IMG/VR virus record: IMGVR_UViG_2698536337_000010
DNA length: 7,739 nt
Reading direction: 5' to 3' (one strand)
From: a virus
Taxonomy: Duplodnaviria > Heunggongvirae > Uroviricota > Caudoviricetes
Of this stretch, positions 1 through 7,739 are shown one piece after another. Made by a program: the position numbers and the translations under genes. Positions within the stretch are counted from its first letter, which is position 1; each line of letters starts with the position of its first letter. A model generated the notes under the pieces. It did not search any database. It saw nothing but the letters and a program-made list of their open reading frames with translations, and was not told the origin of the DNA.

Positions 1-787
<787 letters not shown>

Positions 788-818
788 ATATATATGTATT
801 TTCTCTGTTAAGCGTGAG

Positions 819-871
819 CTACGTGAAAAATAATTTTTGGTGTGGGTATTAACTTTGCTTTATTCACGTAG
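819..871. repeat. Perfect 9-bp inverted repeat CTACGTGAA / TTCACGTAG with a 35-bp spacer, just 3' of the tape-measure stop codon
   Basis: Plus 819-827 CTACGTGAA and 863-871 TTCACGTAG are exact reverse complements. No U-tract follows on either strand, so not a canonical terminator. Confidence 0.5.
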
Positions 872-883
872 AACACCGTTAAA

Positions 884-3064
884 TCATTCTTCCTCTGGAT
901 AGCTTGAACTTAAGAGCATATCCTGCGTGAACTGGTCATTAGCTGATTGATTGAAAGTAAAGAAAGATGGTTCATCTGGTCGAACGACAACTTGACCACC
1001 AAGTGAAACTTTCACTGGCTCCTGAATACGCTTACTCAAAGCACTAATTTCATCCCTCAGACCCTGAATATCTGCACTCGTTAATGCTGAATCTTGCTTA
1101 ATGTTGTTTAACTCTGGATGATTGAATCTTGCAATATTCATTGTGGCATTGTTAAACAATTCACCCATTGAACTAAAAATTCTACTCCATCCTTCGTTAA
1201 TCATATTCGGTTTATTAGGGTCACCAGAATACACGGGATTAAAGTCACTACCCACACCTACCCCAGACGGATGCATATTAGCGTTTTTGACTACTTCCTG
1301 ATTCATAAAATCCAGTGCTTTCTTCAATGCATATAAACCAAGAGTGACGCCTCTGATTTGTGGAATCATTGAAGCTAATGCTAACGCTGTTTCATAACCG
1401 TCATCAGCATAACCAATTGCAAGAGCACTACCTACACCACCAGCTACACCTTTCAGTTTTCCACCACCTTTACCAGTAGCTACCTGACCAGCCACCTGAT
1501 TAGCTCTTGTACCTAACGTTGTGATTGCTCTTGTCAGGTTCATAACCCCTGTAGTAGCACTGAATAGCGTCTTTGCAGATAACGCTATAGCAAGACCTTT
1601 GACGAAGTTGATAAAACCATCACCGACTTCATCAAGTAGTTTTCGTTTAGTGTCATCAAGGCTGTAATAGAACTTCTTAGTCTGTAAAATCCAGCCTTCA
1701 ATGGTGTTATTGAATACGCGAATATCATCTACACCAGCTTTAAGCATGTCGATAAGTCCACCGATAGCATCACCAGCGATAGAAGAACTCATCCCCATTT
1801 CACTAAGCAGGTTACTCAGGCTGGATAAGAAGCCGTTTAGCTCATCCTGTGAACCTGAGAAGATTTTCACCATCGTATCATCCCAATTGTTTGCTAACTT
1901 ACCTAAAGCTGTCTGAGTGCTCTTAGTGACTTCAGCCCAGCCACCCGCTTTATCAATCATCAAGCCCATCTGTTTAGCGACTTTAGGGAGAGTATCAGCG
2001 GAAAGTACCTTCCCGTTTTTCATGGCTGCATCAAGCTCTGTAGCAGTCATACCCAATGCTTCAGCGAATAGCTTAAATGCACCAGCCATACGGTCACCTA
2101 ACTGCCCACGTAATTCCTCAGCCTGAATCTTGCCCTTGCTCGCCATCTGCTCAAATGCTCTCAAAATGCCGTTTAGCTCATCGTTAGAAAGCCCCATTAA
2201 GCGACTCATAGCCGTTGCATTACCAAATAGCTCCTGTGTCTGTTCCTGTGACATAGAACCCTGAGCACCTGCTGCAAACTTAGCGTAGCTTGATAGCCCT
2301 TCAGAGATATTAAGACCTGTCTTGTCTGCTAAATTTCGAATAAATACCTCAGCTTCAGATGCTTTATCACCAAGTACAAACTTAGCGGCTCTCTGTGCGG
2401 AATCTCGTTTAAGACCTGCATTCATAATGGCCTTGTAAGCGTTAAGAGCACCCATCACAGAGTAAAATGCACCAGATAATTTAATCGCATTGCTTGCAAG
2501 ATTATTAAATGCGTCGCTTGTATTGTTAATGCTGGCGGTCTTTGTCTGTGACCTGAGTTTATTCAACGTTTCACGAAGAGATTGATTTAATTTTGCAAGT
2601 TCAGCGTTAAACTTTTCACTTCCAATATTACCAGCCTTACCGCTTAAGCTGTAATACTGTGCTTTAAACATTTTAGCCATCAGCGGATTAATATCACCAA
2701 GCTTAGACATATTCACGCTATGCGCTGCTGTGATTGCTCTGTTTCCGCTAATTCGTGGTTGCCTTGATTGTTTTGGAGGATTAACAGTGTCATTAAATCT
2801 GGTGGCAAACTGAAATGCTTTTGTGCTTCTTGCTCTCTGCTCAATCTTGTCAAAGGTCTTATTAAACTTCCTTTCAAGCTGCCCTAAAGAACTTGTCAGA
2901 TTGCTGTCAAGTTGCTTGGTATCGACCTTAAACGCTCTATTCAAATTGCGTTCAATTCTTTGTGCTGACTGCAAAGCTGCCTTTTCAACTCTTTGCAAGC
3001 CCTTAATAACGTTTTCACTGAAACTAAGTTCAACGATAAAACTATCAACTGTGAATTTGCTCAT
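884..3064 (-). CDS. Phage tail tape-measure protein (726 aa)
   Basis: ATG at 3064 with SD AGAGGTGA 7 nt upstream. Coiled-coil-like N-terminal third; central segment GKIQAEELRGQLGDRMAGAFKLFAEALGMTATELDAAMKNGKVLSADTLPKVAKQMG matches the conserved tape-measure domain as I recall it; Gly-rich hydrophobic segment GKGGGKLKGVAGGVGSALAIGYADDGYETALALASMIP is typical of TMPs. No Walker motifs. Confidence 0.8.
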   Translation of the reverse strand: MSKFTVDSFIVELSFSENVIKGLQRVEKAALQSAQRIERNLNRAFKVDTKQLDSNLTSSLGQLERKFNKTFDKIEQRARSTKAFQFATRFNDTVNPPKQSRQPRISGNRAITAAHSVNMSKLGDINPLMAKMFKAQYYSLSGKAGNIGSEKFNAELAKLNQSLRETLNKLRSQTKTASINNTSDAFNNLASNAIKLSGAFYSVMGALNAYKAIMNAGLKRDSAQRAAKFVLGDKASEAEVFIRNLADKTGLNISEGLSSYAKFAAGAQGSMSQEQTQELFGNATAMSRLMGLSNDELNGILRAFEQMASKGKIQAEELRGQLGDRMAGAFKLFAEALGMTATELDAAMKNGKVLSADTLPKVAKQMGLMIDKAGGWAEVTKSTQTALGKLANNWDDTMVKIFSGSQDELNGFLSSLSNLLSEMGMSSSIAGDAIGGLIDMLKAGVDDIRVFNNTIEGWILQTKKFYYSLDDTKRKLLDEVGDGFINFVKGLAIALSAKTLFSATTGVMNLTRAITTLGTRANQVAGQVATGKGGGKLKGVAGGVGSALAIGYADDGYETALALASMIPQIRGVTLGLYALKKALDFMNQEVVKNANMHPSGVGVGSDFNPVYSGDPNKPNMINEGWSRIFSSMGELFNNATMNIARFNHPELNNIKQDSALTSADIQGLRDEISALSKRIQEPVKVSLGGQVVVRPDEPSFFTFNQSANDQFTQDMLLSSSYPEEE

Positions 3065-3095
3065 TCATGTTTCACCTCTTTAAGTGTTCATATAC

Positions 3096-3137
3096 GAAAA
3101 AGGGAAAGACTACCGATATCACTCGATAATCTCTCCC
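3096..3137 (-). terminator. Candidate intrinsic terminator or attenuator between the 68-aa ORF and the tape-measure gene
   Basis: Minus RNA: GGGAGAGA-u-UAUCG-agugauau-CGGUA-g-UCUUUCCC followed by UUUUUCG. Outer 8-bp stem (one G-U) plus inner 5-bp stem, then a U5 tract, ending about 30 nt before the TMP SD. Confidence 0.4.
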
Positions 3138-3162
3138 GTAGATTTTCACCCAACCAATCTTG

Positions 3163-3369
3163 TTACCTAACCAGATAATAATTACCATCTTCACCAACAA
3201 TCTGACAATCACTTGGTAATTTATCAAGACACCACTTAGCTATTTTCCTGATTCTATTCTTTTGCTTAGAGGAGGTGAATGATTTGATTCGTTTTGGTTT
3301 GTTGGGTTGTTCTTTCAATCGTTCACTAATTGCTTTAATAAGCTCATAGCGTTCTGTTAAATCAATCAT
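3163..3369 (-). CDS. Hypothetical small basic protein (68 aa)
   Basis: ATG at 3369 with SD AAGGTGGTGGTG directly upstream. Lys/Arg-rich middle (KPKRIKSFTSSKQKNRIRKIAKW). No recognisable family. Confidence 0.6.
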   Translation of the reverse strand: MIDLTERYELIKAISERLKEQPNKPKRIKSFTSSKQKNRIRKIAKWCLDKLPSDCQIVGEDGNYYLVR

Positions 3370-3393: not shown

Positions 3394-4104
3394 TTAAATA
3401 GCCTTTGCATATTTGCTAGAAATCTTCGTAAGCTGCTCAATATCAGCCTGCATAGCAATCTTCTTAGCATCTTCATATTCTTTCACAAGCTCTTTCATAG
3501 CCTGAAGCTCTCTTGAGAGATACAACTTAACATTATCAAGTTGCTTGTTACGTGATGCCAAGATGTTCTGTCTAGCAATTTCAGCGAGTTCTTCATCGCT
3601 CTTATTAGTCATGTAAATAAACTGACCAGCACCTCTTGATGCCTTAACCATCTTCACAATTCGATGTCCAGCAGGAAGACTACTAATCACGGCTGCGACG
3701 TTTTCTTGAAAAGTACCAAAACCATCATTATCTTCGTATTGGTAATAGACAAATGGTTTCTGTGACAATTCATCCTGAATCTCAAATTCTGACGGCTCAA
3801 TAGCTGATTGCATCAAGGTAACTTTGCTGTAAGCGTCATCTAATCTAAGGCGCTGTTCTTTCAGCAGTTGGTAATATTTCTTTTCAAGCTCAAGTAATGC
3901 TTCACTCTTGCAAATATCAGGCATCTCTTGAGGCTCAGGAGACACAAAGATGGTTGTTTTTGGTGACATCTTTAGCGATTGCTCAAGCTCAATACGCTTG
4001 TCATGCTCTTTACGCTGAATAGTGATAGCTGGATGTTCAGTCTGTGGCGACCAGTCACTGAAGCTATCAATCACTTTGCCATTAATGTAAATATCATTTG
4101 TCAT
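3394..4104 (-). CDS. Hypothetical protein (236 aa) with a charged, helical or coiled-coil-like C-terminal third
   Basis: ORF track gives 3394..4152, but 4152 is a GTG. The in-frame ATG at 4104 is preceded by GAGGAA at a good distance, so 4104 is preferred. Same strand as the TMP gene; two stops separate it from the 68-aa ORF. Confidence 0.65.
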   Translation of the reverse strand: MTNDIYINGKVIDSFSDWSPQTEHPAITIQRKEHDKRIELEQSLKMSPKTTIFVSPEPQEMPDICKSEALLELEKKYYQLLKEQRLRLDDAYSKVTLMQSAIEPSEFEIQDELSQKPFVYYQYEDNDGFGTFQENVAAVISSLPAGHRIVKMVKASRGAGQFIYMTNKSDEELAEIARQNILASRNKQLDNVKLYLSRELQAMKELVKEYEDAKKIAMQADIEQLTKISSKYAKAI

Positions 4105-4279
4105 TGCTTTTCCTCTTCTAAGCGGAAGTGTTTCAGTTTTTAAAAAGCACACCTGACAGCCTATCTAAACTTAGAAGAGACTTAAAAGGCGGTTTGCCAA
4201 GTATGCTTTTTAAAAGCTGAATAGCCCTAGATAATTTCTTATAAAGGGCCATTCATAAGGTGAAGAAATTAAAACATCT

Positions 4280-4301
4280 AAAGGATTCAAAAAGGATTCA
4301 A
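4280..4301. repeat. Tandem direct repeat 2 x 11 bp (AAAGGATTCAA AAAGGATTCAA) in a 350-bp non-coding region
   Basis: Exact duplication read directly from the sequence. Nearby inverted repeats ATGACCT/AGGTCAT (4328-4334 / 4351-4357) and ATCATT/AATGAT (4391-4396 / 4404-4409). Confidence 0.6.
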
Positions 4302-4424
4302 ACGAATGAACAAGAGTACTTTTCGAGATGACCTCTCAGACTAACCTGAAAGGTCATGTAGCGAAAAGCATTGCACCTTTCAGAATAACTATCATTGATG
4401 TAGAATGATTAATAGTTTAATTCA

Positions 4425-4441
4425 GGAAGAGTTGCTCTTCC
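4425..4441 (-). terminator. Weak candidate hairpin downstream of the 25-aa ORF (GGAAGAG-ttg-CTCTTCC)
   Basis: Perfect 7-bp inverted repeat with a 3-nt loop, followed on the minus strand by the A/U-rich stretch UGAAUUAAACUAUUA. The short loop and interrupted U-tract make this weak. Confidence 0.2.
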
Positions 4442-4502
4442 CTATTACCATCATCTCATGCTTAAGGTTATTTGTCAACAGCTTTTTAACAGATTGGTAA
4501 CA

Positions 4503-5758: not shown

Positions 5759-5816
5759 TGTAAAAATCTCCTTAAATCTCTTACTCATACTACAATCTTA
5801 ACATCTATTTAACATA

Positions 5817-5845
5817 TTGTCAGTACCTCATTTACATGATACTAT
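5817..5845 (+). promoter_or_regulatory. Sigma-70-type promoter for the plus-strand small-membrane-protein gene
   Basis: -35 TTGTCA (5817-5822), 17-bp spacer, extended -10 TGaTACTAT (TG 5837-5838, hexamer 5840-5845). Predicted start about 5852, followed by SD AAGGA (5885-5889) and ATG 5896. Confidence 0.5.
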
Positions 5846-5895
5846 GGTTGTAGGGGCTGATACAGGTGCTGTTTCCTTTCACAAAAGGAAAATTA

Positions 5896-6072: not shown

Positions 6073-6456
6073 CTGGTGGACTGAATCCCATAAATCGTAA
6101 TGATACAGCACCGCAAACTTCAAAGCGTCAATCTTTAAATCTGTCACATCATCGACGAAATAATAATCCCTCCCTTCTTTCTTCGGTCGAATCCGNNNNN
6201 NNNNNNNNNNNNNNNNNNNNNNNNNNNNNNNNNNNNNNNNNNNNNNNNNNNNNNNNNNNNNNNNNNNNNNNNNNNNNNNNNNNNNNNNNNNNNNNNNNNN
6301 NNNNNNNNNNNNNNNNNNNNNNNNNNNNNNNNNNNNNNNNNNNNNNNNNNNNNNNNNNNNNNNNNNNNNNNNNNTCATCAAGTAACCTTCACGAGAAATG
6401 CTGTAACGTCTGAGTAAATAGTCACGGTATTTTCTCTCGCCATTATAAGTTTTCAT
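6058..6456 (-). CDS. Hypothetical protein interrupted by an assembly gap, in the position a lambda P-like partner gene would occupy
   Basis: ATG at 6456 overlaps the TAA of the replication gene (TAATG), using the GGAGGA inside the upstream gene's last codons as SD. Only 27 N-terminal and 45 C-terminal residues are real sequence. Frame continuity across the N run is not evidence the two pieces are one gene. Confidence 0.35.
   Translation of the reverse strand: MKTYNGERKYRDYLLRRYSISREGYLMXXXXXXXXXXXXXXXXXXXXXXXXXXXXXXXXXXXXXXXXXXXXXXXXXXXXXXXXXXXXRIRPKKEGRDYYFVDDVTDLKIDALKFAVLYHYDLWDSVHQLFIY
6196..6374. other. Assembly or scaffold gap (179 N)
   Basis: Uninterrupted run of n characters. Confidence 0.99.
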
Positions 6457-7409
6457 TAAAACATTCCTCCACCATAAACACGTCTGACTTTAACTTTTTC
6501 TTTCTTTGGCTCGGTGTGAGTTTTCTTTTTTGGTGTAAAAGTAAAATCATCGTCACTATCATCAAAGTCATCGAGGTCACTAACCTTGTTCTTTAGCTTC
6601 GCATTTCTGAATCTTTCTTTAATTTCTGCTTTACGCTGTTCACGTTTCAATTCCTTTTCAGGGTCTTCTTCATCATCAAGGTCAACATCCGGTAATTCAT
6701 CATCAGTGGCGGGGCACTGTGTGTTTTTATGGTCACTACTAGCAATCACATCAGAGATTTTATCTTCCTTTTTAACGACCTCTTTAGCAGCTTCACTATC
6801 AAGGTCATCTAAGTCAGATGTTTTAACAGTCTCTTTAATAGCCTCTTCAATACCAAGAGAATCACATTCATGTGAATCACAGAGCGAAGCTCCCTTCTTA
6901 AAATATTCTTCTTCAAAGTCATCTTCTTTATTGTTATTAATAAGTTCTTTCTTGTTATTACTGTTATTATACGTGTCAAAGATTTTGACTGACTGAGTAA
7001 AAAATTTTGACTCAGTGGGTAAAGAATTTTGACTCAGTGGGTCATCTTTCTTGACTGACTGAGTAACTTTAGACTCCAGCTTTGCCTTTCTGGCTTCCTT
7101 AGCTGTAAGCTCTGTTAAAACCTCCGGTACTTCATCAAGTGAATAAACTTTAATAACACACTGATTGCTTGCAACGTTAGTTTTCTTGATTAAACCATGT
7201 GCCTCAAGTTGTTTCATACATGCAATCACGGATGTTCTTGTGATTCCAGCATACTGACCAAGATGAGCATATGAAGGGGTATAATATTGCCCCTTATCGT
7301 GATAAAACTTTTGTTCATTCAACATGACAGTGTAAATAATACGGTCGGCAGCTTTAACGCCATTAGTCATCTGATAAATACGGTCATCAAACATGTGGAA
7401 TTTTTCCAT
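6456..7409 (-). CDS. Replication initiator (lambda O / replisome-organiser-like, 317 aa): N-terminal helix-turn-helix domain plus a long acidic low-complexity C-terminal region
   Basis: ATG at 7409 with SD AAAGGAAAA (the track's 7466 start is a TTG lying inside a terminator hairpin). N-terminal about 100 aa contain an HTH-like segment (YAHLGQYAGITRTSVIACMKQLEAHGLIKK). The gene contains an iteron array and AT-rich tract. C-terminal about 200 aa are D/E/K-rich with repeated SDLDD-like motifs. Confidence 0.75.
   Translation of the reverse strand: MEKFHMFDDRIYQMTNGVKAADRIIYTVMLNEQKFYHDKGQYYTPSYAHLGQYAGITRTSVIACMKQLEAHGLIKKTNVASNQCVIKVYSLDEVPEVLTELTAKEARKAKLESKVTQSVKKDDPLSQNSLPTESKFFTQSVKIFDTYNNSNNKKELINNNKEDDFEEEYFKKGASLCDSHECDSLGIEEAIKETVKTSDLDDLDSEAAKEVVKKEDKISDVIASSDHKNTQCPATDDELPDVDLDDEEDPEKELKREQRKAEIKERFRNAKLKNKVSDLDDFDDSDDDFTFTPKKKTHTEPKKEKVKVRRVYGGGMF
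6983..7070. repeat. Four 22-bp phased iterons (origin-like) inside the replication initiator gene, flanked by an AT-rich tract (about 6900-6982)
   Basis: TTGACT cores at 6985, 7007, 7029 and 7051, exactly 22 bp apart. Units are TTTTGACTGACTGAGTAAAAAA / TTTTGACTCAGTGGGTAAAGAA / TTTTGACTCAGTGGGTCATCTT / TCTTGACTGACTGAGTAACTTT, an A-B-B-A arrangement in which A and B contain mutually inverted ACTGAGT / ACTCAGT cores. Confidence 0.7.
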
Positions 7410-7423
7410 TATATTTTCCTTTT

Positions 7424-7470
7424 TAAAAATAAAACAAAGAAAGGGCTGACCACGTATAGTGACCAACCCC
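7424..7470 (-). terminator. Intrinsic-terminator-like hairpin plus U-tract immediately upstream of the replication gene (tR1-like position)
   Basis: Minus RNA: GGGUUGGUCAC-uauac-GUGGUCAGCCC (11 bp including 3 G-U pairs) followed by UUUCUUUGUUUUAUUUUU, ending about 15 nt before the SD of the replication gene. The G-U pairs become C-A mismatches on the plus strand, so the element is minus-strand specific. Confidence 0.5.
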
Positions 7471-7479
7471 AGAGGGAGT

Positions 7480-7739
7480 GAATTAATTAGAAGATGGACT
7501 GATAAAGGAACTCAGAAGCCTGAGCGATTACGCGAGTATTAACAGCAAAAGGAAAAGCCTTGATTGAATAAGAGGCCGTGAAAATCTGTCAATACCCTGA
7601 CGCCTCCCAACGTTGTAACCTCTTAATGTTCTGAGTTCTTTTATCACCCCATATAAAAACTATAACAGATGTGATTATAAATTGCAACAATTATTTCACA
7701 GAATAATTACTGATTGGTCATTTATTGTTCACAGGGATA
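7480..7739. promoter_or_regulatory. Non-coding AT-rich region at the right edge with candidate promoter hexamers and direct repeats (early regulatory region, truncated by the window)
   Basis: No ORF of plausible size on either strand. Minus strand has a perfect TATAAT (plus 7674-7679) with a poor -35, and a perfect TTGACA (plus 7587-7592) with a poor -10 (TATTCA). Direct repeats TTATTTCACAG / TTATTGTTCACAG lie 33 bp apart (TTCACAG at 7695-7701 and 7728-7734). Confidence 0.3.

What the first reader, a model, noticed from the sequence alone, without database searches (positions are those of the whole stretch)
3096..3137. Terminator-like hairpins sit immediately 5' of both the replication gene and the tape-measure gene
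Two separate hairpin-plus-U-tract elements (3096-3137 and 7424-7470) end 15-30 nt before the ribosome-binding sites of the two largest genes, leaving no room for a promoter in between. Expression would then need read-through, which suggests antitermination control of the lambda N/Q kind or attenuation.
Basis: inference. Interest (0 to 1): 0.45.

Follow-up and report, generated by a model that had tools for sequence, protein, structure and literature searches.

The report
Terminator gates in a phage-satellite island
Both hairpins are real, conserved transcription stop signals placed directly in front of the replication gene and the tail tape-measure gene of a small, apparently undescribed E. 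coli island that borrows tail genes from Felix O1-like phages, so both genes can be made only when RNA polymerase reads through the stops.

Summary
On the minus (coding) strand, T1 (stem-loop 3137..3102, then TTTTT) and T2 (7470..7442, then a U-rich tract) are the two strongest terminator-like sites in the window. They lie 37 and 32 nt before the tape-measure and rep start codons.

- **T1** occurs at the same junction in 85 of 86 related islands. There are 29 distinct sequences, all pairing, each with 1-4 G-U pairs and a T-run of 5-7.
- **T2** closes a roughly 215-nt leader transcribed from a conserved near-consensus promoter. Its first ~160 nt form a covarying structure with no Rfam match.
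- No promoter fits after either hairpin, so read-through is needed.
- A cis switch is not supported, because T2 forms with probability about 1. No N, Q or nut element was found.
- The likely helper phage has the same layout: its strongest late-operon terminator ends 34 nt before its chaperone/tape-measure genes.

The window belongs to an ~11-kb integrative island with a serine integrase, an iteron-bearing rep gene, and Felixounavirus-derived tape-measure and baseplate genes. It resembles Vibrio PLE satellites.

My reading is that T1 is a leaky insulating terminator and T2 is a default-off leader gate opened in trans. The trigger is unknown.

The parts
3102..3137 (-). T1 stem-loop (15 bp, 6-nt loop, 3 G-U pairs)
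   Evidence: -23.6 kcal/mol, z = -4.6. Found in 85 of 86 related loci as 29 distinct sequences, all pairing.
3092..3101 (-). T1 U-tract (TTTTTCGTAT)
   Evidence: A T-run of 5-7 follows the stem directly in all 85 loci.
3073..3079 (-). Ribosome-binding site of the tape-measure gene (AGAGGTG)
   Evidence: Read from the sequence. The GAGGTG motif before the ATG is conserved across loci.
884..3064 (-). Tape-measure protein gene (726 aa), derived from Felixounavirus
   Evidence: PF20155, phrog_4036. One search shows DNA similarity to Felixounavirus.
3163..3369 (-). Island-specific 68-aa gene whose transcript T1 would end
   Evidence: Annotated as a ~70-aa hypothetical gene at this position in all islands.
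3394..4104 (-). Island-specific 236-aa core gene (no family match)
7442..7470 (-). T2 stem-loop (12 bp, 5-nt loop, 4 G-U pairs)
   Evidence: Pair probability about 1 in the full leader. Three sequence types fold alike at the same place.
7424..7441 (-). T2 U-rich tract (TTCTTTGTTTTATTTTT)
7494..7652 (-). Structured 5' domain of the rep leader RNA (23-bp outer stem plus inner helices)
   Evidence: 99% of cells are paired against 33-50% in the slid controls. Nine pairs change on both sides. z = -5.7. No Rfam match.
7659..7687 (-). Candidate promoter of the rep leader (TTGCAA-17-TATAGT with an upstream TG)
   Evidence: Conserved in every leader-bearing locus, including those without the methylase gene upstream.
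6456..7409 (-). Replication initiator gene (317 aa, winged-helix/DnaD_N-like)
6975..7062 (.). Four 22-bp iterons inside the rep gene (candidate origin)
4147..4197 (-). Third terminator-like hairpin plus TTTTT, about 40 nt before the 236-aa gene; part of a long inverted repeat (4132-4221)
4450..4478 (-). Candidate promoter of the 236-aa/68-aa/TMP unit (TTGACA-17-GATGAT with TG)
   Evidence: The equivalent site TTGACA-17-CATAAT is present in L012.
808..871 (-). Conserved cassette CTACGTGAA...CACGTAGCTCACGCTTAA between TMP and the baseplate gene. In 33 related islands a second copy sits between T1 and TMP.

Best explanation
Both hairpins are Rho-independent terminators that work in the sense RNA of a small integrative island resembling a phage satellite.

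T1 separates the island's own 236-aa and 68-aa genes from tail genes captured from a Felix O1-like phage. It stops most transcripts that start at the promoter near 4478..4450, and a minority read through to make the tape-measure protein. The helper-type phage places a strong terminator in front of its own chaperone/tape-measure genes in the same way.

T2 is the end of a ~215-nt, highly structured leader RNA made from a strong-looking promoter. By default transcription stops there and rep stays off. Rep is made only when termination at T2 is overcome by something acting in trans, most plausibly during infection by the helper phage.

Shown:
- The hairpins, their U-tracts and their strand specificity.
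- Conservation with compensating changes.
- The absence of promoter space.
- The absence of a competing cis structure.
- The analogous layout in the phage.

Inferred:
- That they terminate in vivo.
- That T1 is leaky.
- That T2 is conditionally bypassed.
- The identity of the trigger.
For: Terminator anatomy and energies:
- Both hairpins have the stem, loop and U-tract of an intrinsic terminator.

T1 conservation:
- Present in 85 of 86 loci as 29 distinct sequences of 12-17 bp.
- Folding energies -15 to -22 kcal/mol, with a T-run of 5-7.
- Every variant has 1-4 G-U pairs, which would be C-A mismatches on the other strand.
- Stem positions 9 and 11 change on both sides, and other positions switch between G-C and G-U.
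- T1 is the best-conserved non-coding piece between diverged islands.

Need for T1 read-through:
- The spacer to the ATG is as short as 24-27 nt in some loci.
- The TMP reading frame is intact in 42 of 46 complete copies that lack any insert after T1.

T2:
- Three unrelated hairpin sequences occupy the same position before the rep ribosome-binding site.
- The promoter-leader-T2-rep unit is kept as a module even where the upstream methylase gene is absent.
- The leader's 5' domain is supported by covariation, with z = -5.7.
- T2 pair probabilities are about 1, and no upstream segment sequesters its 5' arm.

Helper-type phage garuso:
- The strongest terminator in its 20-kb late operon lies between the gene annotated 'structural protein' (gene 115) and the tape-measure chaperone gene. 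Its stem ends 34 nt before the chaperone start codon.
- The Felix O1 genome paper states that how that phage transcribes past its many terminators is unknown (PMC3185647).
Against: - There are no transcript data, so termination efficiency is not known.
- T2 is only moderately stable (-15.6 kcal/mol, z = -2.5). In the commonest leader type its U-tract has only four U residues.
- No trans factor has been identified: the island's small proteins match no family.
- In 33 of 85 islands a conserved cassette that may be a promoter sits between T1 and TMP. There, T1 may be a full stop rather than a leaky one.
- The covariation in the leader comes essentially from two or three lineages, so it reflects few independent events.
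- The window's own copy looks partly decayed, because its baseplate gene is disrupted.
Confidence: 0.45

Rival explanations
1. A single processive antitermination system. A helper-phage factor (or an island factor) makes RNA polymerase resistant to termination. T1, T2 and the hairpins in the third leader are then all bypassed together on infection, which switches the whole island on.
For: - All three co-directional units of the island carry terminator-like hairpins in their leaders or junctions.
- The promoters upstream are near consensus.
- The helper-type phage needs read-through of its own late-operon terminators, and how it achieves this is unknown.
Against: - No N- or Q-like protein was found, and boxA-like words are at chance level.
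- Felix O1 is reported to encode no obvious modifier of RNA polymerase (PMC3185647).
- The cassette that follows T1 in 33 islands suggests TMP can have its own promoter.
Confidence: 0.2
2. Both are purely passive, constitutively leaky terminators. They only lower the level of Rep and TMP relative to the upstream RNAs, and switching the island on or off is done elsewhere, for example by a repressor at the promoters.
For: - This is the simplest reading, and it is common in phage structural operons. The same layout occurs in phage garuso.
- TMP is needed in few copies per tail (general knowledge).
- A candidate regulator gene sits next to a divergent promoter region at 5788-5866. This was read by eye and not tested.
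Against: - It does not explain why rep carries a conserved, covarying 160-nt structured domain ahead of the terminator.
- It does not explain why a near-consensus promoter would be paired with a terminator rather than simply being weaker.
Confidence: 0.2
3. T2 is mainly the 3' end of a trans-acting small RNA. The ~215-nt structured RNA would be the functional product, analogous to the SviR RNA of Vibrio PLE satellites, and rep expression by read-through would be secondary.
For: - The unit of promoter, structured RNA and terminator looks like an RNA gene.
- All PLEs encode a regulatory small RNA that binds helper tail-gene transcripts (PMC12987554).
- Leader type A has 20 of 21 nt complementary to Felixounavirus nrdD mRNA.
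Against: - The nrdD match is at chance level (E = 3) and is not shared by leader type B.
- The RNA occurs only with this rep module (28 of 97 loci) and always directly abuts the rep ribosome-binding site. That fits a cis leader.
Confidence: 0.1
4. T2 is the expression platform of a cis-acting switch: a riboswitch, a ribosome-mediated attenuator or a countertranscript-driven attenuator that alternates between terminator and antiterminator folds.
For: The architecture of a structured domain, a linker, a terminator and then the ribosome-binding site is that of many riboswitches.
Against: - No alternative pairing competes with T2 in any of the three types.
- There is no conserved leader peptide (sequences).
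- No antisense promoter was found.
- There is no Rfam match.
Confidence: 0.05

Closest known systems
Internal terminators of phage structural operons (here the terminator ahead of the tape-measure chaperone gene in Felixounavirus garuso; T7 T-phi is the textbook case, from my own knowledge)
   Same: - A strong hairpin plus U-tract lies between co-directional genes.
- It ends about 30-35 nt before the next start codon, with no promoter after it.
- The downstream tail genes therefore depend on read-through.
   Different: - T1 has no detectable sequence homology to any phage sequence.
- It sits at the join between island-specific genes and captured phage genes.
Lambda PR'-6S RNA-tR' with Q antitermination (own knowledge)
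   Same: A constitutive-looking promoter makes a ~200-nt RNA that ends at an intrinsic terminator just upstream of the genes to be switched on.
   Different: - No Q homologue was found.
- No Q-binding element was identified.
- The leader here is an elaborate 160-nt covarying structure, which 6S RNA is not known to need.
Satellite P4 immunity: premature termination in the leader of the replication (alpha) operon, guided by CI RNA (own knowledge)
   Same: - It is a phage satellite.
- Its replication genes are kept silent by termination within a leader transcribed from an active promoter.
- The leader RNA is itself structured and functional.
   Different: - There is no sequence or Rfam relation.
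- P4 uses RNA-RNA pairing between repeated leader segments. Only a weak hint of that exists here: the leader's 5' end is complementary both to the outer stem's 3' strand and to the 3' arm of T2.
- The helper here is a virulent myovirus.
Countertranscript-driven attenuation of rep in plasmids pT181, pIP501 and pAMbeta1 (own knowledge)
   Same: A terminator lies immediately 5' of the ribosome-binding site of a replication initiator gene, inside a long leader.
   Different: - No antisense promoter or terminator was found.
- No alternative pre-emptor structure was found.
PLE satellites of Vibrio cholerae (PMC12987554; PMC13060381)
   Same: - Both have a large serine recombinase integrase and an initiator with iterons.
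- Both carry their own tape-measure and baseplate genes, used in PLE to build chimeric tails.
- The helper is a virulent myovirus.
- PLE expression is staged and depends on infection.
   Different: - The host and the helper genus differ.
- The tail genes here are 88-93% identical in DNA to the helper genus, against 20-41% protein identity in PLE.
- No terminator-based control has been described for PLE in the paper I searched.

Membership tests
Rho-independent (intrinsic) terminator | A stable G+C-based stem with a short loop (3-8 nt) on the transcribed strand | tested here: met
   T1 has 15 bp and a 6-nt loop at -23.6 kcal/mol. T2 has 12 bp and a 5-nt loop at -15.6 kcal/mol. Both have G-C pairs at the stem base.
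Rho-independent (intrinsic) terminator | A run of U directly after the stem | tested here: met
   T1 is followed by TTTTT in the window and by 5-7 T in 85 loci. T2 is followed by TTCTTTGTTTT in type A but only TTTTC in type B.
Rho-independent (intrinsic) terminator | Structure conserved through compensating changes, in the sense strand only | tested here: met
   There are 29 T1 variants that all pair, each with G-U pairs. Three T2 types have different sequences but the same fold.
Rho-independent (intrinsic) terminator | RNA 3' ends form at the U-tract in vitro or in vivo | not testable with these tools
   Needs Term-seq, Northern blots or in vitro transcription.
Lambda N / nut antitermination | A boxA/boxB nut site in the transcript upstream of the terminator | tested here: not met
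   boxA-like words: 6 found against 5.0 expected, and none lies in the leaders on the minus strand.
Lambda N / Q antitermination | An N- or Q-family protein encoded nearby | tested here: not met
   No such Pfam, PHROG or NCBIfam match for any window protein, even at E <= 5. The annotated island genes outside the window are recombinases and a methylase. The helper-phage proteome was not scanned.
Lambda Q / qut | A promoter-proximal sigma-70 pause element (-10-like) and a Q-binding element | tested here: inconclusive
   A conserved TGATAAAA lies at about +7 to +14 of the leader in all types. It is also part of the outer stem, and no binding element can be defined.
Countertranscript-driven rep attenuation (pT181 type) | An antisense RNA gene within the leader, and alternative terminator/pre-emptor folds | tested here: not met
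   No plus-strand promoter lies in 7412-7660, and no competing fold exists.
Riboswitch or cis attenuator | A known aptamer family, or mutually exclusive terminator and antiterminator helices | tested here: not met
   No Rfam match at E <= 1. T2 pair probability is about 1 in all types.
P4-type immunity | Leader segments complementary to a processed leader RNA cause premature termination | tested here: inconclusive
   The leader's 5' end (GGGCUGAUA) is complementary both to the outer stem's 3' strand and to the 3' arm of T2, at -7 to -12 kcal/mol. There is no sequence relation to P4 and no processing data.
PLE-like phage satellite | Small integrative element with a large serine recombinase and its own initiator plus iterons, and no capsid or packaging genes | tested here: met
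   The island is about 11 kb and splits the DUF72 gene or sits at tonB-yciI, wrbA-ymdF or dinB. Its gene content is shown, and the iterons.
PLE-like phage satellite | Own tape-measure and baseplate genes related to those of a virulent helper | tested here: met
   88-93% DNA identity to Felixounavirus. The PLE precedent is in PMC12987554.
PLE-like phage satellite | Helper-dependent excision, replication and transduction | not testable with these tools
   Needs infection experiments.

The most novel reading that the evidence does not exclude
The terminators are the island's helper sensor. Felix O1-like phages must carry an unrecognised general antitermination activity in order to express their own terminator-studded late operon. 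A widespread, undescribed family of E. coli satellites has placed terminators (T2, T1 and the hairpins of the third leader) in front of its replication and tail genes. Infection by the helper, and nothing else, would then license those genes, with the 160-nt structured leader RNA serving as the receptor or tuning element.
Probability: 0.2. Interest if true: 0.75.

Novelty: new member of a known kind. Interest (0 to 1): 0.5.

Why it matters
How satellites of strictly virulent phages detect their helper is largely open. So is how Felix O1-like phages transcribe past their many terminators, a question raised in 2010 (PMC3185647).

This island offers a compact, testable system:
- It has three promoter-leader-terminator units.
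- One of them has a covarying 160-nt RNA domain, in front of a replication initiator and helper-derived tail genes.
- Matches to the T1 region were found in about 390-430 of 5,426 complete E. coli genomes.

If read-through proves to depend on infection, it would define a new induction route for satellites and point to an antitermination function in a phage genus used for typing and therapy. If read-through is passive, the result is ordinary operon tuning.

Tried and rejected
- **Rfam search.** A permissive search of the whole window found nothing in either region.
- **Related loci in genome contigs.** A scan with Rep found nothing. A scan with TMP found only one E. albertii copy and an unrelated prophage, L004.
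- **Viral-contig scan.** A leader pattern gave 17 loci, all chance matches.
- **Homology of T1 to a phage sequence.** There was no BLAST match. The likeness to the garuso terminator is in layout only.
- **Homology of the TMP-baseplate cassette to phage DNA.** None found, and its motifs are absent from the 46 kb of garuso examined.
- **A promoter overlapping T1.** The site TCGGTA-17-TATATG, read by eye, matches only about 7 of 12 positions. It was not reported by the scan, and its geometry fails in loci where the ribosome-binding site follows the U-tract directly. Rejected.
- **TTGTTT-18-TATAAT after T2.** This would start transcription inside rep, downstream of its ATG. Rejected.
- **T2 as the terminator of the upstream methylase gene.** T2 lies downstream of the conserved rep promoter, and the module persists where the methylase is absent. 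Rejected.
- **Bidirectional terminators.** No T-run follows either hairpin on the plus strand, and the G-U pairs would be mismatches there. Rejected.
- **The 68-aa and 236-aa proteins as homologues of the phage tape-measure chaperones.** No similarity. There was also no relative among solved structures.
- **Leader peptide.** The 39-aa GTG-started reading frame in leader type A is not conserved in type B.
- **Formal pair counting for T2.** MAFFT put the two types one column out of register, so T2 was compared by separate folding instead.

Full report
**What is in the window.** Almost all reading frames lie on the minus strand. From high to low coordinates they run as follows:
- A non-coding stretch (7739-7410).
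- A 317-aa replication initiator (6456..7409), matching PHROG replication-initiation families at about 1e-10 and DnaD_N weakly. It carries four 22-bp iterons inside the gene at 6975-7062.
- Several small genes with no family match.
- A 430-nt non-coding stretch.
- A 236-aa gene and a 68-aa gene with no family match.
- A 726-aa tape-measure protein gene (884..3064; PF20155 at 2e-21; phrog_4036 at 4e-93).
- The start of a gene that RefSeq annotates as 'phage baseplate protein'.

**The observation.** The consensus scan reports T1 and T2 as the two longest terminator-like stems in the window.
- T1 is 3137..3102 on the minus strand: 15 bp, followed by TTTTTCGTAT. It folds at -23.6 kcal/mol (z = -4.6; 0 of 200 shuffles fold as well).
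- T2 is 7470..7442 on the minus strand: 12 bp, followed by TTCTTTGTTT. It folds at -15.6 kcal/mol (z = -2.5; 4 of 200 shuffles).
- The T1 stem end is 37 nt from the TMP ATG, and the T2 stem end is 32 nt from the rep ATG. In each case the ribosome-binding site lies inside that spacer.
- No promoter-like site is reported in either spacer.

**Where the window comes from.** The window is part of an integrative island of about 11 kb in E. coli chromosomes.
- Matches to the 68-aa gene/T1 region occur in 427 of 5,426 complete genomes, and matches to T1 alone in 389.
- The island has a constant architecture: a large serine recombinase, the baseplate gene, TMP, a ~70-aa gene, a ~236-aa gene, small variable genes, a replication module, often a Dam methylase, and a small serine recombinase.
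- It is inserted at wrbA-ymdF, at tonB-yciI, next to dinB, or inside a DUF72 gene that it splits in two.
- The baseplate gene, and parts of TMP, are 88-93% identical in DNA to lytic phages of the genus Felixounavirus. In those phages TMP abuts its chaperone gene and the next gene, with no intergenic elements.
- This is the make-up of a phage satellite. It is closest to the PLEs of Vibrio cholerae, which were recently shown to encode their own TMP, chaperone and baseplate hub for chimeric tails (PMC12987554).
- I found no description of the E. coli island in the paper library.

**T1 in relatives.** I collected 16 island copies from E. coli and E. albertii genomes, and 80 more from metagenomes using a profile of the 236-aa protein.
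- Of 86 loci that contain the TMP start, 85 have the T1 hairpin at the same junction.
- There are 29 distinct hairpin sequences. All fold into 12-17 bp stems (-15 to -22 kcal/mol), and all are followed directly by 5-7 T.
- Every variant contains 1-4 G-U pairs, so the structure exists only in RNA of the coding strand.
- Stem positions 9 and 11 show changes on both sides (T-G, A-T, G-C, G-T; G-C, C-G, T-A). Other positions switch between G-C and G-U or between U-A and U-G.
- T1 is also the best-conserved non-coding piece between diverged islands. Some BLAST hits cover only the hairpin.

This is strong evidence for a functional terminator-type RNA hairpin.

**What lies after T1.** Three arrangements occur:
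- In 34 loci, including the window, the ribosome-binding site follows within 40 nt or less, and in some within 24-27 nt.
- In 17 loci a small extra hairpin is inserted.
- In 34 loci there is an insert of more than 70 nt. In 33 of these the insert is a conserved cassette, CTACGTGAA ... (T/C)ACGTAGCTCACGCTTAA.

The cassette has these properties:
- It is found in every island between TMP and the baseplate gene (window 808-871).
- It occurs nowhere else, and always on the gene strand.
- It has a -10-like TAGAAT or TATTTT but no -35 element (read from the sequences). It may therefore be an activator-dependent promoter. This is untested.

The TMP reading frame is intact in all three classes: 28 of 31, 14 of 15 and 25 of 30 complete copies. 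In the 51 loci without the cassette, TMP must therefore be expressed through T1.

**T2 and the rep leader.** T2 is not isolated.
- A promoter-like site TTGCAA-17-TATAGT, with an upstream TG (7687..7659), is conserved in every locus that has this rep module. This includes loci where the methylase gene upstream is missing. T2 is therefore not the methylase terminator.
- From that promoter a leader of 223-246 nt runs to the rep ATG.
- Three sequence types exist. At the T2 position they have different sequences:
  - GGGGTTGGTCAC/GTGGTCAGCCCT
  - AGGCTAATCGG/CCGGTTGGCCT
  - a weaker third form
- All three types fold into a hairpin followed by T-rich sequence, 22-35 nt before the ATG.
- The first ~160 nt of the leader fold into a long structure with a 23-bp outer stem and inner helices.
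- On an alignment of 15 distinct leaders, 99% of cells pair against 33-50% when partners are slid. Nine pairs change on both sides, against 0-3 in the slid controls.
- The window's leader folds at -74.6 kcal/mol against -52.4 +/- 3.9 for shuffles (z = -5.7).
- Caveat: the covariation stems from only two or three lineages.
- There is no Rfam match.
- The leader occurs only with this rep module, in 28 of 97 loci.

**Is there a cis switch?**
- In the full leader, T2 has pair probabilities of about 0.9-1.0 in all three types.
- The RNA truncated before the 3' arm does not sequester the 5' arm.
- The best upstream partner of the 5' arm is weak (-4 to -10 kcal/mol).
- The only recurrent feature is that the leader's 5' end (GGGCUGAUA) is complementary to the 3' arm of T2 as well as to its normal partner in the outer stem. 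It is locked in that stem.
- There is no conserved leader peptide and no plus-strand promoter in the leader.

Ribosome-mediated attenuation, a riboswitch-type platform and countertranscript attenuation are therefore not supported. The default state is termination.

**Is there an antiterminator?**
- None of the window's proteins matches N, Q or any other family, apart from TMP and Rep.
- boxA-like words are at chance level.
- The rest of the island encodes recombinases and a methylase.
- The helper-phage proteome was not scanned.

**The helper-type phage has the same layout.** In Felixounavirus garuso the strongest terminator in the 20-kb late region is AAGGGGGAGACTTTAAAAGGTCTTCCCCTT followed by TTTTGTTTCT.
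- It lies between the gene annotated 'structural protein' (gene 115) and the tape-measure chaperone gene. Its stem ends 34 nt before that gene's ATG.
- A second hairpin plus T-run directly abuts the ribosome-binding site of the gene before terminase.
- The Felix O1 genome paper notes numerous Rho-independent terminators. It says that whether they are passed by read-through or by secondary promoters is unknown, and that the phage has no evident RNA polymerase or specificity factor (PMC3185647).
- T1 has no detectable sequence homology to phage DNA, so the resemblance is one of design.

**A third case in the window.** The 350 nt before the 236-aa gene are also highly structured (-112 kcal/mol, z = -6.6).
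- They follow a TTGACA-17-GATGAT promoter-like site.
- They include a long inverted repeat whose 3' arm is followed by TTTTT about 40 nt before the ATG.
- In relatives, GCCC...GGGC hairpins followed by T-runs are conserved about 105 and 210 nt upstream of that gene. In the window's type the T-run of the proximal hairpin is broken.

**Interpretation.**
- T1 is best read as an intercistronic terminator that insulates and down-tunes the captured tail genes. It mirrors the helper's own design, and TMP is made by read-through.
- T2 is best read as a default-off gate at the end of a structured leader, opened by something in trans.
- Whether that trigger is a helper-phage function, which would make the terminators a helper sensor, cannot be decided from sequence.
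- I rate the split model at 0.45, one shared processive antitermination system at 0.2, purely passive leak at 0.2, a trans-acting small RNA at 0.1 and a cis switch at 0.05.

**Novelty and interest.** As objects, both are new members of a very well-known kind. What raises the interest is the setting:
- A common, apparently undescribed satellite-like island of E. coli that carries Felixounavirus tail genes.
- Three terminator-bearing leaders.
- An unclassified, covarying leader RNA in front of rep.

Together these make two open questions directly testable.

Noticed in passing
whole window; L001 7340-18504; L005 3295-14039: The window is part of an ~11-kb integrative island. It carries a large serine recombinase, a baseplate gene, TMP, core genes of ~70 aa and ~236 aa, a replication module, often a Dam methylase, and a small serine recombinase. 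Matches to its T1 region occur in roughly 390-430 of 5,426 complete E. coli genomes, and one copy is in E. albertii. It inserts at four sites, one of which splits a DUF72 gene. It looks like a PLE-type satellite of Felix O1-like phages, and I found no description of it.
   Followed up: partly
window 808-871 (- strand): A conserved cassette lies between TMP and the baseplate gene in every island. It has the inverted repeat CTACGTGAA...TTCACGTAG about 45 nt apart, then CTCACGCTTAA, with a -10-like TAGAAT or TATTTT inside. A second copy sits between T1 and TMP in 33 of 85 islands. It has no match in phage records. It may be an activator- or helper-dependent promoter.
   Followed up: partly
window 4100-4450 (- strand): The 350-nt leader of the 236-aa gene is very structured (-112 kcal/mol, z = -6.6). 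It has a 27-nt-arm inverted repeat (4132-4221) and a terminator-like hairpin plus TTTTT about 40 nt before the ATG. Relatives keep GCCC...GGGC hairpins with T-runs about 105 and 210 nt upstream.
   Followed up: partly
window 1-748 (- strand): The baseplate gene of this copy is disrupted. Residues 1-49 and 77-255 of the L001 protein align in different frames, so about 27 residues are lost near 573-581. The last residues and window bases 1-33 diverge from other islands. This copy may be decaying, or the assembly may have errors.
   Followed up: partly
window 6975-7062: Four tandem 22-bp iterons (GT[CA]A..TTTTGACT[GC]A..) lie inside the rep reading frame. The arrangement resembles lambda O with ori-lambda.
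   Followed up: partly
window 7491-7521 (- strand); L118 151-182: The type A leader RNA is complementary to the nrdD (anaerobic ribonucleotide reductase) mRNA of several Felixounaviruses, with 20 of 21 contiguous nt and 28 of 32 overall. BLAST gives E = 3, and leader type B does not share the match, so it is probably chance.
   Followed up: partly
window 3147-3158 (- strand): The 12-mer ATTGGTTGGGTG, between the 68-aa stop codon and T1, is conserved in most islands even where flanking sequence has diverged. Its function is unknown.
   Followed up: no
window 6196-6374: A masked run of N interrupts the 132-aa reading frame downstream of rep, so that gene could not be examined.
   Followed up: no
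L012 11850-13930; also L006, L008-L011, L014: Islands with the alternative replication module have about 2 kb without any reading frame of 50 aa or more. They lack the rep leader and T2, and their first replication-module gene has only a ~45-nt leader.
   Followed up: no
L010, L011, L012, L014 (after T1); L006, L009 (before T1): A small mobile hairpin module, GGATAG(N)CTTCTATCC, appears on either side of T1 in different islands. The intergenic region seems to be built from shuffled short modules.
   Followed up: no
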